DNA of 41,531 nt. It comes from a virus. A model generated the notes under the pieces. It was not told the origin of the DNA. It saw only the letters and a list, made by a program, of their open reading frames with translations, and did not search any database. The position numbers and the translations under genes are program-made. The stretch lies in UHGV virus genome UHGV-0397187. One strand, 5' to 3'. Below are positions 2,306 through 39,614 of the stretch, piece by piece. Numbering within the stretch: position 1 is the stretch's first letter; each line of letters begins with the position of its first letter.

Positions 2306-2494
2306 TCACGAGGACAGAAGTTTCTCGCAATTAAAATTTATCAGCTTTACTTTCTGCTCTCTGGACACGCCTGCTTCTTTTTTCCCTGAGAGCATTTTTT
2401 CGCATTCTGATTTCGTTAATTTAGATTTTGAATATCTTGTCCAGTTAGTAGGAGTGCCACCTTCTTTTTCAATAGTGGCAGTTATTTTATACAT
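2306..2494 (-). CDS. hypothetical small protein (position of Rac ydaC); start uncertain
   Basis: ORF 2306-2566 on minus strand; a later Met is chosen to limit overlap with the downstream lar-like gene. Confidence 0.35.
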   Translation of the reverse strand: MYKITATIEKEGGTPTNWTRYSKSKLTKSECEKMLSGKKEAGVSREQKVKLINFNCEKLLSS

Positions 2495-7012: not shown

Positions 7013-7407
7013 AATTATCTCCATTTTTACAAATGAACTTTGTTGATGCGGTGCCTGGTGCCTCCAGGTGACGTTAACCAGTTAACAATTAACGCCGGAT
7101 AATCCACCCATAACACTGATGCTTTTAACTGTGCCGCGTGCGCTTAGCCGCATTCACCGCATCACAAAATTCACTTTAAAAAGGGGCAGCAGGGCAGCCA
7201 CGGAGTAGAACTGATGCCGCCAAAGACTACACATAGCAATGTCGTTATTTACAACCGGAGGCGCACTCCCACCATTTAAATTTAACAGACAAGACCGACT
7301 CTTTATGAATACCGGAAATGCGCCTTCGTGTTGTGCGCCTGTCTTTTTACCACTTCAGGCTCGGTGGTATACTGGAGTTCTCACACAACCAGTAATAAGG
7401 TATTCCG

Positions 7408-14608: not shown

Positions 14609-14946
14609 ATTACCGAGTAAGGCGATGGACTACCTGAAGCGAAACGGGCTGACAAGCGTGGAGGATATTTTACGATGACCTGGCCTGAGGCATTCACCAC
14701 GGTAGGAATTGCAATGGCGGTGGCGCTGGTGGTGTATTCGATTTGCCGCTGGGGATAAAAACGGTTTGCGGGAAAAGGAGAGTTAAGTAGAATTGCAGCG
14801 GGTGCTTGAGGCTATCTGCCTCGGGCATGAACACCAACGGCAGATAGATAAAAGCCCCACCCGACTATAAATCGAAGTGAGGCCCCTATATGCTCGTCAC
14901 ATATAGATTGCCTCTTACGGACCGAAAGGTCAAGGAGAAGCAGGCT

Positions 14947-15102
14947 ATGAAGCAGCAAAAGGCGATGTTAGTCGCCCTGATCGTCATCTGTTTAACCGTC
15001 ATAGTGACGGCACTGGTAACGAGGAAAGACCTCTGCGAGGTACGAATCCGAACCGGCCAGACGGAGGTCGCTGTCTTCACAGCTTACGAACCTGAGGAGT
15101 AA
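14947..15102 (+). CDS. hok: Hok/Gef-family type I toxin
   Basis: MKQQKAMLVALIVICLTVIVTALVTRKDLCEVRIRTGQTEVAVFTAYEPEE: hallmark Hok sequence; aaggag RBS; in-frame upstream extension from 14890. Confidence 0.9.
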   Translation: MKQQKAMLVALIVICLTVIVTALVTRKDLCEVRIRTGQTEVAVFTAYEPEE

Positions 15103-17102: not shown

Positions 17103-17128
17103 CTCAATCTGTTATCCGGGGCTATATT
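17099..17128 (+). promoter_or_regulatory. late promoter PR'-like (sigma70)
   Basis: -35 ttgact (17099-17104), 18-bp spacer, -10 tatatt (17123-17128). Confidence 0.6.
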
Positions 17129-17189
17129 CCTCACGCGCCAGCAAAATCTGGCGTCGGGATTGGCGTCCCGGATAGAGACCGCGACAGAT

Positions 17190-17213
17190 ACACGCCGCGA
17201 GCGTGTTTTTTAT
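17190..17213 (+). terminator. tR'-like intrinsic terminator about 65 nt downstream of PR'
   Basis: acacgc-cgcga-gcgtgt followed by tttttatt. Confidence 0.6.
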
Positions 17214-17372
17214 TGTCGTATGCACGCGCACATCTGAATTATGGTGGGCTGTGTGGGGGCGGAGAGATCCGCGCCGGTCGGTTTCCCGGTTACGCCAACC
17301 CTGCACAGTTCACCACCAGATGATTGGCGTCGTCGGTGGTGAGTTATTAAGAAACCACCAGAGGGCGTCATT

Positions 17373-18985: not shown

Positions 18986-19080
18986 TGTTAGGCTCCGGAA
19001 ACATCCTCGACTTCTTGTTAGCAAGCCTGAGAGCCTGAATCTTACACTTAGCACCATCCGAACTCTCGGAGGTGAGGCTT

Positions 19081-19422
19081 ATGAAAATGCACAATGCCCC
19101 TCATTCCTGGCCTGACTTACTGGAACTCTTACAAAGTTGGTGGCGTGGAGATACGCCGCTGGGTGCAGTGGTTATGTCAATTATTATGGCTGGTTTGCGC
19201 ATTGCCTATTTTGGCGGTGGCGGCGGCTGGAAACGAAAAACGCTTGAGATTCTGCTTTGTGGTGCTCTGACGCTGACCTTTGCATCCGCGCTTGAGTATG
19301 TCGGATGGCCTAAATCACTTTCTGTTGCCATTGGTGGTGGGGTGGGGCTGATTGGTGTTGATGCTATTCGTGGTGCGGCAATGAGGGTCATCGGTAACAA
19401 GTTCGGTGCCCATAAGGAGTAA
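19081..19422 (+). CDS. holin (lambda S-like, dual-start MKM motif)
   Basis: ATG at 19081 after ggaggtgagg RBS; MKMHN dual-start; hydrophobic segments; directly upstream of endolysin. Confidence 0.75.
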   Translation: MKMHNAPHSWPDLLELLQSWWRGDTPLGAVVMSIIMAGLRIAYFGGGGGWKRKTLEILLCGALTLTFASALEYVGWPKSLSVAIGGGVGLIGVDAIRGAAMRVIGNKFGAHKE

Positions 19423-19425
19423 TTA

Positions 19426-19902
19426 ATGCAGACACTTAATTCCCAGCGTAAAGCTTTCCTTGATATGGTGGCATGGTCAGAAGGAACAGATAACGGACGG
19501 CAGAAAACCAGAAATCACGGTTATGATGTTATTGTCGGTGGCGAACTGTTCACTGATTACTCCGATCACCCCCGCAAACTTGTCACGCTAAATCCGAAAC
19601 TCAAATCAACAGCCGCCGGACGTTACCAGCTTCTTTCACGCTGGTGGGATGCCTACCGCAAGCAACTTGGCCTGAAAGATTTTTCTCCAGAAAGTCAGGA
19701 TGCTGTAGCGCTGCAGCAGATTAAAGAGCGTGGCGCTTTACCGATGATTGACCGCGGCGATATTCGTCAGGCAATCGACCGTTGCAGCAATATCTGGGCT
19801 TCGTTGCCGGGCGCTGGTTACGGTCAGTATGAACATAGAATCGGTGACCTGATTGCCCGATTTAAAGAAGCTGGTGGGGTGGTAAATGAAGCTGAGATAT
19901 AA
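19426..19902 (+). CDS. R: endolysin, lambda R-type lytic transglycosylase
   Basis: NSQRKAFLDMVAWSEGTDNGRQKTRNHGYDVIVGGELFTDYSDHPRKLVTLNPKLKSTAAGRYQLLSRWWDAYRKQLGLKDF matches lambda R almost residue for residue as recalled. Confidence 0.95.
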   Translation: MQTLNSQRKAFLDMVAWSEGTDNGRQKTRNHGYDVIVGGELFTDYSDHPRKLVTLNPKLKSTAAGRYQLLSRWWDAYRKQLGLKDFSPESQDAVALQQIKERGALPMIDRGDIRQAIDRCSNIWASLPGAGYGQYEHRIGDLIARFKEAGGVVNEAEI

Positions 19903-20278
19903 GCTGGTTATTGTTGCCTTCTTTGTTACCGTCATCGGTTCTTTTATCTGGTCTGCCGGGCATTACTACAGCAAATATCAGCACGAAAAGGAGCGCGCTG
20001 ATGAGGCTGTACGAAATGCTGAATCTGCAACAGCCATTACCAGTAACGTCCTGCAATCACTGCAAATCATCAATACAGTTATAGAGGCTAACCAGCATGC
20101 AAAACAGCAGAGCGCACTGGAGTCACAGAGAACCCAGGAAGATATCAAAGTGGCTGTTGCGGATGATGATTGCGCTGTTCGTGTTGTTCCTTCTGGTGCA
20201 GTTAAGCGGTTGCACGAATACGCGAACGGTATACGTGTCGGTGCCGGTCATTCCGTTACCAGCAAGTCTGACGGCTGA
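19886..20278 (+). CDS. Rz: i-spanin (Rz-like)
   Basis: Start overlaps the endolysin stop; N-terminal TM helix LVIVAFFVTVIGSFIW, then charged periplasmic domain. Confidence 0.75.
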   Translation: MKLRYKLVIVAFFVTVIGSFIWSAGHYYSKYQHEKERADEAVRNAESATAITSNVLQSLQIINTVIEANQHAKQQSALESQRTQEDIKVAVADDDCAVRVVPSGAVKRLHEYANGIRVGAGHSVTSKSDG

Positions 20279-20441
20279 AACACCCCAGCCAGATTTACCC
20301 GACCCGTTTACGTGGGGAGCCAGCCTTAACCTGAATGTTGCGTTGTTGTCAGCGTTAGCACAGTGCAACAGGGATAAGGCTGATATCAGGACTTTTGAGA
20401 AAAACAGGGCAGCACAAACCAATGGCACGATTAAACGTTGA
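20163..20441 (+). CDS. Rz1: o-spanin (Rz1-like lipoprotein), overlapping and extending past Rz
   Basis: Other frame inside Rz; signal peptide with lipobox LSGC (MMIALFVLFLLVQLSGCTNT); Pro-rich mature region. Confidence 0.65.
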   Translation: MMIALFVLFLLVQLSGCTNTRTVYVSVPVIPLPASLTAETPQPDLPDPFTWGASLNLNVALLSALAQCNRDKADIRTFEKNRAAQTNGTIKR

Positions 20442-20607
20442 AGTTATCCCACCAGACAGCGAAACGATGAACGAGATTTTTGCAGAGATTGAACGTAAAT
20501 ATGCGCATCAGCCGATGACGCCAAAAGTTATCGATGAAATGCAACGCGAAGCGGCGCGCCTTGTAAGGCGAGTGACAAACACGAAGGTTACGTTTGTTCG
20601 GGACTGA
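20422..20607 (+). CDS. hypothetical small protein
   Basis: ORF with ATG at 20422 (the track start at 20395 is a TTG) between spanins and terminase. Confidence 0.35.
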   Translation: MARLNVEVIPPDSETMNEIFAEIERKYAHQPMTPKVIDEMQREAARLVRRVTNTKVTFVRD

Positions 20608-20664: not shown

Positions 20665-21414
20665 ATGGCAAAACCGGACTGGGAGGCCATCGAATCGGCA
20701 TACCGGGCCGGAGTCCTTAGCCTCCGTGATATAGGCGAGAAATACGGCGTTACAGAAGGGGCTATCAGGAAGAGGGCCAAAAAGCTTGGTTGGGTACGCA
20801 GTGGCGGTACGCAGGTTTGCAAAAATGGTACGCAAAAAAGAAAAGTGCGTACCAGCAGAAAGCCTGCCATTACTGGCCTTACACAAAAAGGTACGCAACC
20901 AAAAACAGAACCTACACTGGATACGAAACCGATACGCGGAATGCGTACCGATCCCCCGACTAACCCATTCCAACCCGGTAACCAGCAGGCATTAAAACAC
21001 GGTGGTTATGCCCGTCGCCTTCTGCTCAAAGATGAGGTGATAGAGGACGCTAAAGCGTTGACGCTCGAGGACGAATTATTTCGCCTTCGTGCTAACAACC
21101 TTGTCGCTGCAGAGAATATTGGTCGGTGGCTGGTGTCGCTGGAAGATGCTAATGGGGACCAGGAAAGGAAGATGCTGATGGAAAATATCAGCGCCGCCGA
21201 GAAAGCAATGATGCGCAATACAGTTCGTATTGAGTCCATCGTTGGCACGCTTGCGACGGTAGGAAAAATATTTGCTGATACAGCCTACCGCAAGGCCGCC
21301 ACTGATAAGGTGTCTCTGGAGGCTGATCGTCTTCGCCGTGATGCAGGTATTGATGATGGCAATGGAGAGCGTGACCTCAATGACTTCTACTCTGACATCC
21401 AAAGCGACGCTTAA
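20665..21414 (+). CDS. terminase small subunit (HTH-containing)
   Basis: N-terminal WEAIESAYRAGVLSLRDIGEKYGVTEGAIRKRAKKLGW HTH typical of small terminase subunits; aagagga RBS; directly precedes large terminase. Confidence 0.8.
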   Translation: MAKPDWEAIESAYRAGVLSLRDIGEKYGVTEGAIRKRAKKLGWVRSGGTQVCKNGTQKRKVRTSRKPAITGLTQKGTQPKTEPTLDTKPIRGMRTDPPTNPFQPGNQQALKHGGYARRLLLKDEVIEDAKALTLEDELFRLRANNLVAAENIGRWLVSLEDANGDQERKMLMENISAAEKAMMRNTVRIESIVGTLATVGKIFADTAYRKAATDKVSLEADRLRRDAGIDDGNGERDLNDFYSDIQSDA

Positions 21415-38937: not shown

Positions 38938-39614
38938 GCAAATACACCGAACTGATCACGAACTACCACGCCACCAAACCTAAATTTCTTGCACATGTTG
39001 ATCTGATGACCCGGCCGCTTATTGATGTTGCGGCTGCCACCAGAGGGCTGATTACTGCATTTGATATTGACTCTGCGGTTGGTGTGCAACTTGACATTCT
39101 TGGATTGTGGATCGGACGTAGCCGTGTTGTCAGCCAGCCTATCTCAGGTGTCTATTTCAGCTGGGATACCGACGGGCTTGGATATGATCAGGGTGTATGG
39201 CAGGGGCCATACGATCCTGATTCCGGATACATGTACCTCAGCGATGAAACTTATCGTGTCATCCTTAAAGCGAAGATTGCGATTAATAACTGGGATGGAC
39301 GGAATGATTCGCTTCCGGCAATTCTTGACGCGGCGACAGCAGGATCCGGACTGCGAATGCAGATAGTCGATAACCAGGACATGACGATATCGGTCTGGGT
39401 CTTTCCTGATACTGATATTTCAGATGTATCGCGTGAGTTAATTGCTGCAATTAAACAGGGATATCTCACAGTAAAAGCCGCCGGGGTTTGGGCGGGTGGC
39501 ATTGAAACACCTTCGGTGGAAACTCCATCGGAAGGTTCAAAATTTTTTGGTTTTGATATGGATAACGAATTCATCAGTGGTTTTGATGTAGGGGCATGGG
39601 GAGTATTACTCTGA
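38934..39614 (+). CDS. baseplate/tail protein (gpI-like)
   Basis: 226-aa ORF immediately upstream of the tail fibre gene. Confidence 0.55.

What the first reader, a model, noticed from the sequence alone, without database searches (positions are those of the whole stretch)
19886..20441. Overlapped rather than embedded spanin pair
The lipoprotein o-spanin frame (lipobox LSGC) begins inside Rz but runs about 160 nt beyond the Rz stop, unlike the fully embedded lambda Rz1. The exact o-spanin start is uncertain.
Basis: partly seen in the sequence, partly recalled or inferred. Interest (0 to 1): 0.35.

Follow-up and report, generated by a model that had tools for sequence, protein, structure and literature searches.

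The report
Ordinary overlapped phage spanin gene pair
This is the last part of a prophage's cell-bursting gene cassette: two overlapping genes whose products bridge the inner and outer membranes. The layout is real, but it is the commonest known arrangement and is already catalogued for the closely related phages SfV, SfIV and Mu.

Summary
Rz (19886-20278, 130 aa, N-terminal membrane helix) is overlapped in the +1 frame by a lipoprotein gene with lipobox LSGC (Cys codon 20211-20213). That gene ends at 20441, 163 nt past the Rz stop.

The part beyond the Rz stop is truly coding. Among 77 distinct homologous sequences, variability there peaks at the third codon position of the Rz1 frame. It encodes the conserved C-terminal helix and the conserved second cysteine. 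No shorter embedded lipoprotein frame exists.

The product matches Pfam LysC (67 bits; cut-off 27). It is 49% identical to the phage Mu o-spanin frame. The DNA is 89% identical to the phage SfV S-R-Rz-Rz1 cassette.

Kongari et al. 2018 list SfV and SfIV as "overlapped", the largest class (228 of 528 two-component spanins). A 99.8% identical copy is annotated as lysC in RefSeq, and 670 of 5426 complete E. coli genomes match.

On the uncertain start, comparative data favour ATG 20097, giving a 114-aa precursor with a 38-aa signal peptide. That ATG is kept in 79/79 distinct sequences and has an upstream GAGG, and Rz wobble variation collapses exactly there. The mature lipoprotein (76 aa) is the same whichever start is used.

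Verdict: real, ordinary, already known.

The parts
19087..19422 (+). Holin S, lambda family. The ORF is open from GTG 19072. ATGs at 19081 and 19087 give an M-K-M dual-start-like N-terminus.
   Evidence: PF05106 E 2e-27, TIGR01594 holin_lambda 139 bits (cut-off 55), phrog_126. PGAP start in the 99.8%-identical E. coli record corresponds to 19087.
19426..19902 (+). Endolysin R, 158 aa. It overlaps the Rz start by 17 nt.
   Evidence: phrog_90 endolysin E 5e-63. Annotated as a glycoside hydrolase family 24/104 protein in E. coli records.
19886..20278 (+). i-spanin Rz, 130 aa. Transmembrane helix at residues 7-25 (nt 19904-19960), helical periplasmic domain, and a single periplasmic Cys96 (nt 20171-20173).
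   Evidence: phrog_214 Rz-like spanin E 1e-43. Best 19-aa hydropathy window is 7-25 with KD 2.22, and Cys96. 24% identical to Mu gp23, E 7e-10. AF2 predicts helices 2-91 and 104-115 at low confidence, pLDDT 59. Cys96 is invariant in 77 sequences.
20084..20087 (+). GAGG Shine-Dalgarno-like element, 9 nt upstream of ATG 20097.
   Evidence: Anti-SD duplex is -5.8 kcal/mol, against -2.3 and -3.3 for ATGs 20163 and 20166. A purine-rich GAG-core motif (GAGG or GGAG) is kept in most of the 79 distinct homologues. The Rz codon GAG at 20084 has a wobble entropy of only 0.17 bits while neighbouring codons have 1.0-1.6.
20097..20441 (+). o-spanin Rz1/LysC precursor, long form, 114 aa (favoured start). 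Signal peptide is residues 1-38: a basic n-region of 22 aa, h-region MMIALFVLFLLVQ, and lipobox LSGC.
   Evidence: ATG conserved 79/79 while the Rz codon across it varies CAT/TAT/AAT/GAT and is never NAC. Rz wobble variability collapses from 1.28 to 0.38 bits at this point. Same start annotated in SfV, SfIV and E. coli APEC E19057.
20163..20168 (+). Two alternative proximal ATG starts (20163, 20166). They would give 92- or 91-aa precursors with no charged n-region.
   Evidence: ATG 20166 kept in 78/79 and ATG 20163 in 71/79 (GTG in 6). Used by PGAP in other E. coli prophages, giving 85-aa lysC. Weak SD.
20202..20213 (+). Lipobox L-S-G-C. The Cys codon 20211-20213 becomes residue 1 of the mature lipoprotein. 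Thr at +2 is not Asp, the inner-membrane retention residue.
   Evidence: (G38 and C39 invariant).
20211..20441 (+). Mature o-spanin, 76 aa: a Pro-rich unstructured linker (7 Pro in the first 35 residues), then a C-terminal helix with the conserved motif ALAQCNRDK. The second Cys is at nt 20364-20366. Residues encoded from 20279 onwards lie outside Rz.
   Evidence: PF23793 LysC 67.3 bits. Alignment invariants. 49% identical to the Mu o-spanin frame, E 2e-19. AF2 predicts coil at 37-72 and helix at 73-111, with pLDDT about 90 at 81-100. Coding periodicity beyond the Rz stop.
20422..20607 (+). Downstream 61-aa ORF of unknown function that overlaps the Rz1 3' end by 20 nt. It is not part of the spanin but it delimits the cassette.
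   Evidence: phrog_12811 E 9e-39 over its full length. Annotated as a hypothetical protein in E. coli APEC E19057.

Best explanation
Window 19886-20441 holds the spanin genes of a lambdoid/Mu-mosaic E. coli prophage. They are the last two genes of an S-R-Rz-Rz1 lysis cassette, in the 'overlapped' architecture.

Shown here:
- Rz is a 130-aa protein with one N-terminal transmembrane helix and a largely helical remainder.
- Rz1 is read in the +1 frame. It starts inside Rz, carries a lipoprotein signal (LSGC, with Thr at +2), and continues 163 nt past the Rz stop.
- The overlap encodes only the Rz1 signal peptide and a proline-rich unstructured linker.
- The conserved C-terminal helix with the invariant QCN cysteine is encoded entirely downstream of Rz.

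Inferred from the lambda Rz/Rz1 and T4 PseT.3/PseT.2 work summarised in PMC6139136:
- Rz sits in the inner membrane as a type II protein.
- Rz1 is lipidated, cleaved at Cys and sorted to the outer membrane.
- The two bind through their periplasmic ends to span the periplasm. Homodimers are probably locked by disulfides at Rz Cys96 and/or mature Rz1 Cys52.
- Once holin and endolysin have removed the peptidoglycan, the complex fuses the inner and outer membranes and releases the virions.

Sub-claim on the start: translation of Rz1 most likely begins at ATG 20097. This gives a 114-aa precursor with an unusually long 38-aa signal peptide that has a basic n-region. My confidence in this sub-claim is about 0.65-0.7. 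The 76-aa mature product is the same whichever start is used.
For: Identity of the genes:
- Family hits: PF23793 LysC 67 bits; phrog_456 and phrog_214; lambda-family holin and endolysin immediately upstream.
- 89% nucleotide identity to the annotated S-R-Rz-Rz1 of SfV. SfIV and SfII are annotated the same way.
- Catalogue entry 'ovl' for SfV and SfIV, and the o-spanin family grouping Mu/D108/SfIV/SfV/APSE (PMC6139136).

Architecture:
- Conserved in 100 loci, and in more distant Mu-like relatives with 103-202 nt extensions.
- Codon-position variability switches from the Rz frame to dual constraint, and then to the Rz1 frame, at the expected boundaries.
- Transmembrane helix, lipobox, Cys and Pro features.
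- Secondary-structure predictions.

Start at 20097:
- The ATG is kept 79/79 although the Rz residue there changes among H, Y, N and D. Those four residues are the set whose codons can end in -AT, and the synonymous -AC codons never occur.
- All seven NAY codons upstream of it in Rz have wobble entropy of at least 0.81 bits, against 0.00 at this one.
- It has the best SD of the candidates.
- Mu-like relatives and the P2 and lambda o-spanins all have basic n-regions, which the proximal start would lack.
Against: - No experiment here shows expression, lipidation or lysis function.
- Rz falls below the Pfam DUF2570 gathering score in my scan (20.8 against 26.6) and far below the TIGR03495 LysB cut-off.
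- The Rz structure model is of low confidence, pLDDT 59.
- Against the start sub-claim: the proximal ATG 20166 is also almost perfectly conserved (78/79). PGAP chooses it in several relatives. A 38-aa lipoprotein signal peptide is longer than usual. The conservation between 20097 and 20162 could in principle reflect an RNA-level constraint rather than translation.
- The homologues are phylogenetically related, so counts of sequences are not counts of independent events.
Confidence: 0.92

Rival explanations
1. The architecture is the same, but the o-spanin is translated from the proximal ATGs (20163 or 20166). This gives a 92- or 91-aa precursor with a short signal peptide, MMIALFVLFLLVQLSGC. 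The upstream ATG and the conserved stretch 20097-20162 would then reflect Rz protein constraints or an mRNA element.
For: - ATG 20166 is kept in 78/79 and ATG 20163 in 71/79 distinct sequences.
- PGAP and other gene callers use this start for many relatives, giving 84-92-aa entries.
- A signal peptide of 16-17 aa is closer to the usual lipoprotein length.
- The Pfam LysC model begins near this point.
Against: - The n-region would have no basic residue, unlike the lambda, P2 and Mu-like o-spanins.
- The Shine-Dalgarno match is poor, -2.3 and -3.3 kcal/mol.
- One homologue (L015) has lost both proximal ATGs, reading GTG-ACG, yet keeps the upstream ATG.
- Suppression of Rz synonymous variation begins at 20097, 66 nt upstream, not near 20163.
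Confidence: 0.28
2. The true o-spanin is a shorter frame fully embedded in Rz, as in lambda, and the 163-nt tail is untranslated or a fortuitous open frame.
For: None was found. Lambda Rz1 is embedded.
Against: - There is only one lipobox with a hydrophobic h-region. The VTSC frame at 20043 is not hydrophobic and stops at 20084.
- The tail shows third-position periodicity in the Rz1 frame: 1.10 against 0.46 and 0.26 bits.
- Its amino-acid conservation is 0.86 in the Rz1 frame against 0.65 in the Rz frame.
- It contains most of the invariant residues and the Pfam LysC match.
- No homologue among 100 has a stop at or before the Rz stop.
Confidence: 0.01
3. The genes are intact in sequence but functionally irrelevant, as remnants in a defective prophage that are never expressed or no longer support lysis.
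For: - The window is a mosaic prophage with a Rac-like early region (RalA, DicF, sok).
- The window matches mostly prophage-derived records.
Against: - The whole S-R-Rz-Rz1 cassette and the downstream terminase and head genes are open.
- Strong purifying selection is visible in both frames across 77 sequences.
- Related induced phages carry the same genes, for example SfV, SfIV and the vB_EcoM series.
Confidence: 0.05

Closest known systems
Shigella phage SfV Rz/Rz1, and SfIV and SfII
   Same: 89% (SfV) and 86-87% (SfIV, SfII) nucleotide identity across S-R-Rz and most of Rz1. Rz is 130 aa in all. The lipobox Cys is 68 nt before the end of the Rz stop, and Rz1 extends 157-160 nt beyond it. SfV and SfIV are listed as 'ovl' in the spanin catalogue.
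   Different: The last ~20-25 residues of Rz1 differ (EKNRAAQTNGTIKR here, EMRRNALLAAVR in SfV). The megablast match ends near window 20338. What follows also differs: a 61-aa ORF and terminase genes here, an HNH endonuclease gene in SfV and SfIV.
Phage Mu gp23 (i-spanin) and the unannotated overlapping o-spanin frame
   Same: Overlapped architecture in the same +1 frame. The o-spanins are 49% identical (E 2e-19) and share TWGASL...ALGQCNRDKA. The i-spanins are 24% identical (E 7e-10) and share the D-x-C..R.VP motif. They fall in the same o-spanin family in PMC6139136.
   Different: Mu's extension is longer (202 nt) and its signal peptide is about 28 aa with an MMQKKK n-region. Mu's lysis region has a different endolysin and no lambda-type holin directly upstream.
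Phage P2 LysB/LysC, the paradigm of the overlapped class and namesake of Pfam PF23793
   Same: lysC starts inside lysB and runs 145 nt past its stop. The window's Rz1 passes the Pfam LysC threshold and aligns with P2 LysC from the signal peptide through to the conserved ALA.C motif (28% identity, E 7e-4).
   Different: The sequence relationship is only distant. Rz shows no significant similarity to LysB (E 0.17; TIGR03495 17.8 bits against a cut-off of 92.75). The P2 cassette also contains lysA.
Phage lambda Rz/Rz1, the experimentally characterised prototype
   Same: Same position after S and R, same topology signals (Rz transmembrane helix, Rz1 lipobox), same +1 frame relationship, and periplasmic cysteines in both proteins. 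This is the model for the mechanism.
   Different: Lambda Rz1 (60 aa) is fully embedded in Rz and lacks a C-terminal helix. It has a penta-proline stretch that is absent here. Similarity is confined to the signal peptide, and Rz similarity is marginal.

Membership tests
Two-component spanin (i-spanin + o-spanin) | The i-spanin has a single N-terminal transmembrane domain and a mostly helical periplasmic domain. | tested here: met
   Residues 7-25, LVIVAFFVTVIGSFIWSAG, have mean KD 2.22. AF2 predicts helices 2-91 and 104-115 at low confidence. phrog_214 Rz-like spanin, E 1e-43.
Two-component spanin (i-spanin + o-spanin) | The o-spanin has a lipoprotein signal (hydrophobic region plus lipobox Cys) and no inner-membrane retention residue (Asp) at +2. 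| tested here: met
   MMIALFVLFLLVQ-LSGC followed by Thr at +2. Gly-Cys is invariant in the 26 aligned homologues. No dedicated lipoprotein predictor (LipoP, SignalP) was available.
Two-component spanin (i-spanin + o-spanin) | Located in or next to the lysis cassette, with holin and endolysin. | tested here: met
   Holin 19087-19422 and endolysin 19426-19902 lie directly upstream.
Two-component spanin (i-spanin + o-spanin) | At least one periplasmic cysteine available for a homotypic intermolecular disulfide (507 of 528 systems have one; PMC6139136). | tested here: met
   Rz Cys96 and Rz1 Cys90 (mature Cys52). Rz Cys96 is invariant in the 77 distinct DNA sequences, and Rz1 Cys90 is invariant in the 26 aligned proteins. 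Disulfide formation itself was not tested.
Two-component spanin (i-spanin + o-spanin) | Function: needed for outer-membrane disruption, and complements lambda Rz-am Rz1-am. | not testable with these tools
   This requires a lysis assay.
'Overlapped' spanin architecture (Summer 2007; Kongari 2018) | The o-spanin gene starts inside the i-spanin gene and extends beyond its stop codon. | tested here: met
   Start at 20097 or 20163/20166, Rz stop at 20276-20278, Rz1 stop at 20439-20441. The extension is shown to be coding. The definition comes from PMC6139136.
Pfam PF23793 LysC (Rz1-like lysis system protein LysC) | Score at or above the gathering threshold (27 bits). | tested here: met
   67.3 bits, E 1e-18, covering model positions 3-68 of 69.
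SfV/Mu o-spanin family of Kongari et al. 2018 | Significant sequence similarity to family members across the periplasmic domain. | tested here: met
   49% identity to the Mu o-spanin frame, E 2e-19. 89% nucleotide identity to SfV. Family list read.
Pfam PF10828 DUF2570 (for Rz) | Score at or above the gathering threshold (26.6 bits). | tested here: inconclusive
   20.8 bits in my scan, which is below the threshold. However, homologues 92-99% identical carry a precomputed PF10828.15 hit and the NCBI name 'DUF2570 domain-containing protein'.
NCBIfam TIGR03495 phage_LysB (P2 LysB equivalog) | Score at or above 92.75 bits. | tested here: not met
   17.8 bits. BLASTP against P2 LysB gives E 0.17. 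Rz is not a LysB equivalog, though it has the same role.
Lambda Rz1 (embedded o-spanin family) | The gene lies wholly inside Rz, and the mature protein is short and proline-rich with a penta-proline stretch. | tested here: not met
   The gene extends 163 nt past Rz. Similarity to lambda Rz1 is confined to the signal peptide. There is no PPPPP stretch.

The most novel reading that the evidence does not exclude
The o-spanin may have two conserved in-frame starts: ATG 20097 (79/79) and ATG 20166 (78/79). That would be a 'dual-start' arrangement yielding two prolipoprotein precursors. One would carry a 22-aa basic N-terminal extension that is itself under purifying selection. Such a pair could tune the rate of export and maturation of the o-spanin, and so the timing of outer-membrane disruption. 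Alternatively, the extension could act on its own before cleavage. My data show both ATGs and the extension are conserved, but cannot say which start is used or whether the extension does anything beyond targeting.
Probability: 0.12. Interest if true: 0.3.

Novelty: already known. Interest (0 to 1): 0.07.

Why it matters
It matters little for discovery. This gene pair, its architecture and its family are already in the spanin catalogue, and a 99.8% identical sequence is annotated in RefSeq.

Its practical value is for annotation.
- Overlapping spanin genes are often missed or given the wrong start. In the 99.8% identical E. coli record, PGAP calls lysC but omits Rz altogether. In the RefSeq Mu record the o-spanin is not annotated.
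- The comparative evidence assembled here gives a principled way to set the o-spanin start for the whole SfV-like family. That evidence is an ATG preserved through non-synonymous Rz changes, together with a change-point in wobble variability.
- It also illustrates neatly that the overlap is confined to the disordered, tolerant part of the o-spanin.

Tried and rejected
- NCBIfam scan of Rz1: no hit for either the long or the short form. The PGAP name 'LysC' must therefore come from another rule.
- PDB sequence search: nothing for Rz, and only a chance hit (E 0.62) for Rz1. No fold search was run, because the models are largely single helices or coil and of modest confidence.
- Alternative embedded lipoprotein frame: rejected.
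- TTG 20157 as a start: rejected. Its nearest purine-rich tract lies too far upstream by my reading of the sequence (about 15 nt), and its anti-SD duplex is only -3.3 kcal/mol.
- Motif coverage: my first motif regex missed the more distant loci L021-L035. A looser search recovered 9 of 17, counting Mu, all of them overlapped. L023-L026, L029, L034 and L035 were partial or divergent matches and were not pursued, and P2 LysC did not fit the 'QCN' motif.
- Catalogue figures for the SfIV o-spanin: the coordinates (38759-39058) and the length (93 aa) are mutually inconsistent in the supplementary tables. I did not use them to decide the start.
- Rz structure prediction: the Rz homologues returned were all at least 92% identical, so the alignment used was shallow.

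Full report
**What is there.**
ORF listing and the raw sequence show Rz at 19886-20278 (130 aa). Its start overlaps the end of the endolysin gene by 17 nt. A second frame, +1 relative to Rz, is open from 20085 to the stop at 20439-20441. It has ATGs at 20097, 20163 and 20166 and encodes ...MMIALFVLFLLVQLSGC|TNTRTVYV.... The lipobox Cys codon is 20211-20213. The frame continues 163 nt beyond the Rz stop.

**Context.**
- Directly upstream are a lambda-family holin (PF05106 E 2e-27; TIGR01594 139 bits) and an endolysin (phrog_90 E 5e-63).
- Rz matches phrog_214 'Rz-like spanin' at E 1e-43.
- The lipoprotein matches Pfam PF23793 'Rz1-like lysis system protein LysC' at 67.3 bits (cut-off 27) and phrog_456 at E 1e-28.
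- Downstream, a 61-aa ORF (phrog_12811, unknown function) overlaps the Rz1 end by 20 nt. Then come a 249-aa ORF (20665-21414; annotated 'hypothetical protein' in the 99.8%-identical E. coli record and 'terminase small subunit' in related phage records) and the large terminase subunit.

This is a canonical S-R-Rz-Rz1 lysis cassette.

**Is the extension real coding sequence?**
I collected 100 related loci: 29 from species-representative genomes, 80 from viral contigs, plus annotated phages and E. coli records. They give 79 distinct sequences.
- In every locus the lipobox Cys codon starts 68 nt before the end of the Rz stop.
- In every locus the lipoprotein frame runs 136-163 nt further.
- More distant Mu-like relatives have 103-202 nt extensions.

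Position-by-position variability in 77 ungapped sequences shows three regimes.

| Segment | Pattern of variability (bits) |
|---|---|
| Upstream of 20097 | Concentrated at Rz codon position 3: 1.28, against 0.83 and 0.58 at positions 1 and 2 |
| 20097 to the Rz stop | Overall variability halves and the Rz wobble signal disappears (0.31-0.41) |
| Beyond the Rz stop | Concentrated at Rz1 position 3: 1.10, against 0.46 and 0.26 |

Two further points follow.
- In the part where mature Rz1 overlaps the Rz C-terminus, Rz1 is the better-conserved protein (0.90 against 0.72 majority-residue fraction). Rz absorbs the changes there.
- The extension encodes the invariant block SL.LN...L..AL.QCN.DK. AlphaFold places this in a confidently predicted helix, residues 73-111, with pLDDT about 90 at 81-100.

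The segment encoded inside Rz is the signal peptide plus a proline-rich coil. The only other lipobox-like tetrapeptide (VTSC at 20043) has no hydrophobic core, and its frame ends at 20084. The 'shorter embedded frame' alternative is therefore excluded.

**The start codon.**
Public annotations disagree: 112-114 aa in SfV, SfIV and E. coli APEC E19057; 85 aa in other E. coli records; longer in SfII. Five lines favour ATG 20097.
1. The ATG is present in 79/79 distinct sequences. The Rz codon that spans it varies among CAT, TAT, AAT and GAT (His, Tyr, Asn, Asp). The synonymous NAC forms never occur, and the next codon is always GCN with a freely varying third base.
2. All seven other NAY codons of Rz upstream of it have wobble entropy of at least 0.81 bits, against 0.00 at this one.
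3. The collapse of Rz synonymous variation begins right at this ATG, 66 nt before the proximal ATGs.
4. A GAGG lies 9 nt upstream. Its anti-SD duplex is -5.8 kcal/mol, against -2.3 and -3.3 for the proximal ATGs. It is itself protected from wobble change.
5. The proximal start would leave a signal peptide with no basic n-region. The lambda, P2 and all Mu-like o-spanins have one. One homologue (L015) has lost both proximal ATGs but keeps the upstream one.

Against this, ATG 20166 is also kept in 78/79, and a 38-aa lipoprotein signal is long. I put about 0.65-0.7 on 20097 as the main start. Signal peptidase II cuts before the same Cys either way, so the mature 76-aa lipoprotein is unaffected.

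**How it most likely works.**
- Shown: the topology signals (Rz transmembrane helix 7-25; Rz1 lipobox with Thr at +2), the helical character of Rz (AF2, low confidence), one periplasmic Cys in each protein that is invariant across homologues, and placement after holin and endolysin.
- Inferred from the lambda and T4 systems as summarised in PMC6139136: Rz in the inner membrane and lipidated Rz1 in the outer membrane bind through their periplasmic domains. They are stabilised by homotypic disulfides. After peptidoglycan removal they fuse the two membranes.

**Comparison with known systems.**
- The DNA is 89% identical to phage SfV over S-R-Rz and most of Rz1, and 86-87% to SfIV and SfII. All have the same gene layout annotated.
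- Kongari et al. 2018 list SfV and SfIV as 'ovl'. They place their o-spanins in one family with Mu, D108, ENT47670, APSE-1 and APSE-2.
- I confirmed the Mu link directly. The unannotated +1 frame over Mu gp23 encodes an LLTGC lipoprotein 49% identical to the window's Rz1 (E 2e-19), and gp23 is 24% identical to Rz (E 7e-10).
- P2 LysB/LysC, the textbook overlapped pair (145-nt extension), is only distantly related: LysC 28% identity, E 7e-4; LysB not significant; TIGR03495 not met.
- Lambda Rz1 is embedded and shares only signal-peptide similarity.
- Overlapped is the most common architecture: 228 of 528 two-component spanins, against 182 embedded and 118 separated.

**Prevalence.**
The 556-nt region matches 670 of 5426 complete E. 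coli genomes, 330 of them over at least 80% of its length. One match is 99.8% identical, and there PGAP annotates 'lysC: Rz1-like lysis system protein LysC' (114 aa). Rz homologues at 92-99% identity are seen on more than 1000 contigs.

**Verdict.**
The feature is ordinary and already catalogued. The only modest addition is the comparative evidence on the o-spanin start, together with the finding that the overlap is limited to the signal peptide and disordered linker. Interest is low.

Noticed in passing
window 19072-19095: The holin ORF begins ...M-K-M-H-N..., with ATGs at 19081 and 19087. This is the same Met-Lys-Met dual-start pattern as lambda S107/S105. The SfIV paper (PMC3851460) states that SfI, SfII, SfIV and SfV holins lack a dual-start motif, so this relative may differ from them in lysis timing control.
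   Followed up: no
L004 (E. coli APEC E19057, NZ_CP126934.1) 1201-1756, equivalent to window 19886-20441: In a 99.8% identical RefSeq record, PGAP annotates lysC (114 aa) but has no CDS for the 130-aa Rz i-spanin. This is an annotation gap caused by the overlap.
   Followed up: partly
L118 (phage Mu NC_000929) 1592-2068: The RefSeq Mu record annotates gp23 as an Rz-like spanin but not the overlapping o-spanin frame (LLTGC lipobox, 202 nt beyond the gp23 stop). That frame is 49% identical to the window's Rz1.
   Followed up: yes
L010, L011, L012, L018 (Raoultella and Klebsiella prophages), Rz N-termini: These Rz homologues start MSRLTAIISAV.ICL.VCLGWL..HYH, which resembles the lambda Rz N-terminus, joined to the SfV-like C-terminal half. 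This suggests a mosaic junction inside the i-spanin gene, upstream of the overlap.
   Followed up: no
window about 20338-20441: Similarity to SfV ends inside the Rz1 C-terminal tail. Homologues fall into several tail-length classes, the commonest being 163-nt and 142-nt extensions, with different last residues. A recombination boundary therefore lies within the o-spanin 3' end.
   Followed up: partly
window 20422-20607: A 61-aa ORF (phrog_12811, unknown function) starts 20 nt before the Rz1 stop. It lies between the lysis cassette and the 249-aa ORF at 20665-21414 that precedes the large terminase gene, the position where SfV and SfIV carry an HNH endonuclease gene.
   Followed up: no
window 2310-2488, 7184-7235, 14800-14949, 17122-17320: Rfam gathering-level hits: RalA antitoxin sRNA, DicF, sok, and a c4-a1b1/isrK/C4 antisense RNA cluster just upstream of the late region. 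The window is a Rac-like lambdoid early region joined to an SfV/Mu-like late region.
   Followed up: no
L013 (CACSKA010000001.1, labelled Chryseobacterium sp. 18061): A 73%-identical enterobacterial-type spanin pair sits in an assembly labelled Chryseobacterium. All other hits are Enterobacterales, so contamination or mislabelling is likely.
   Followed up: no
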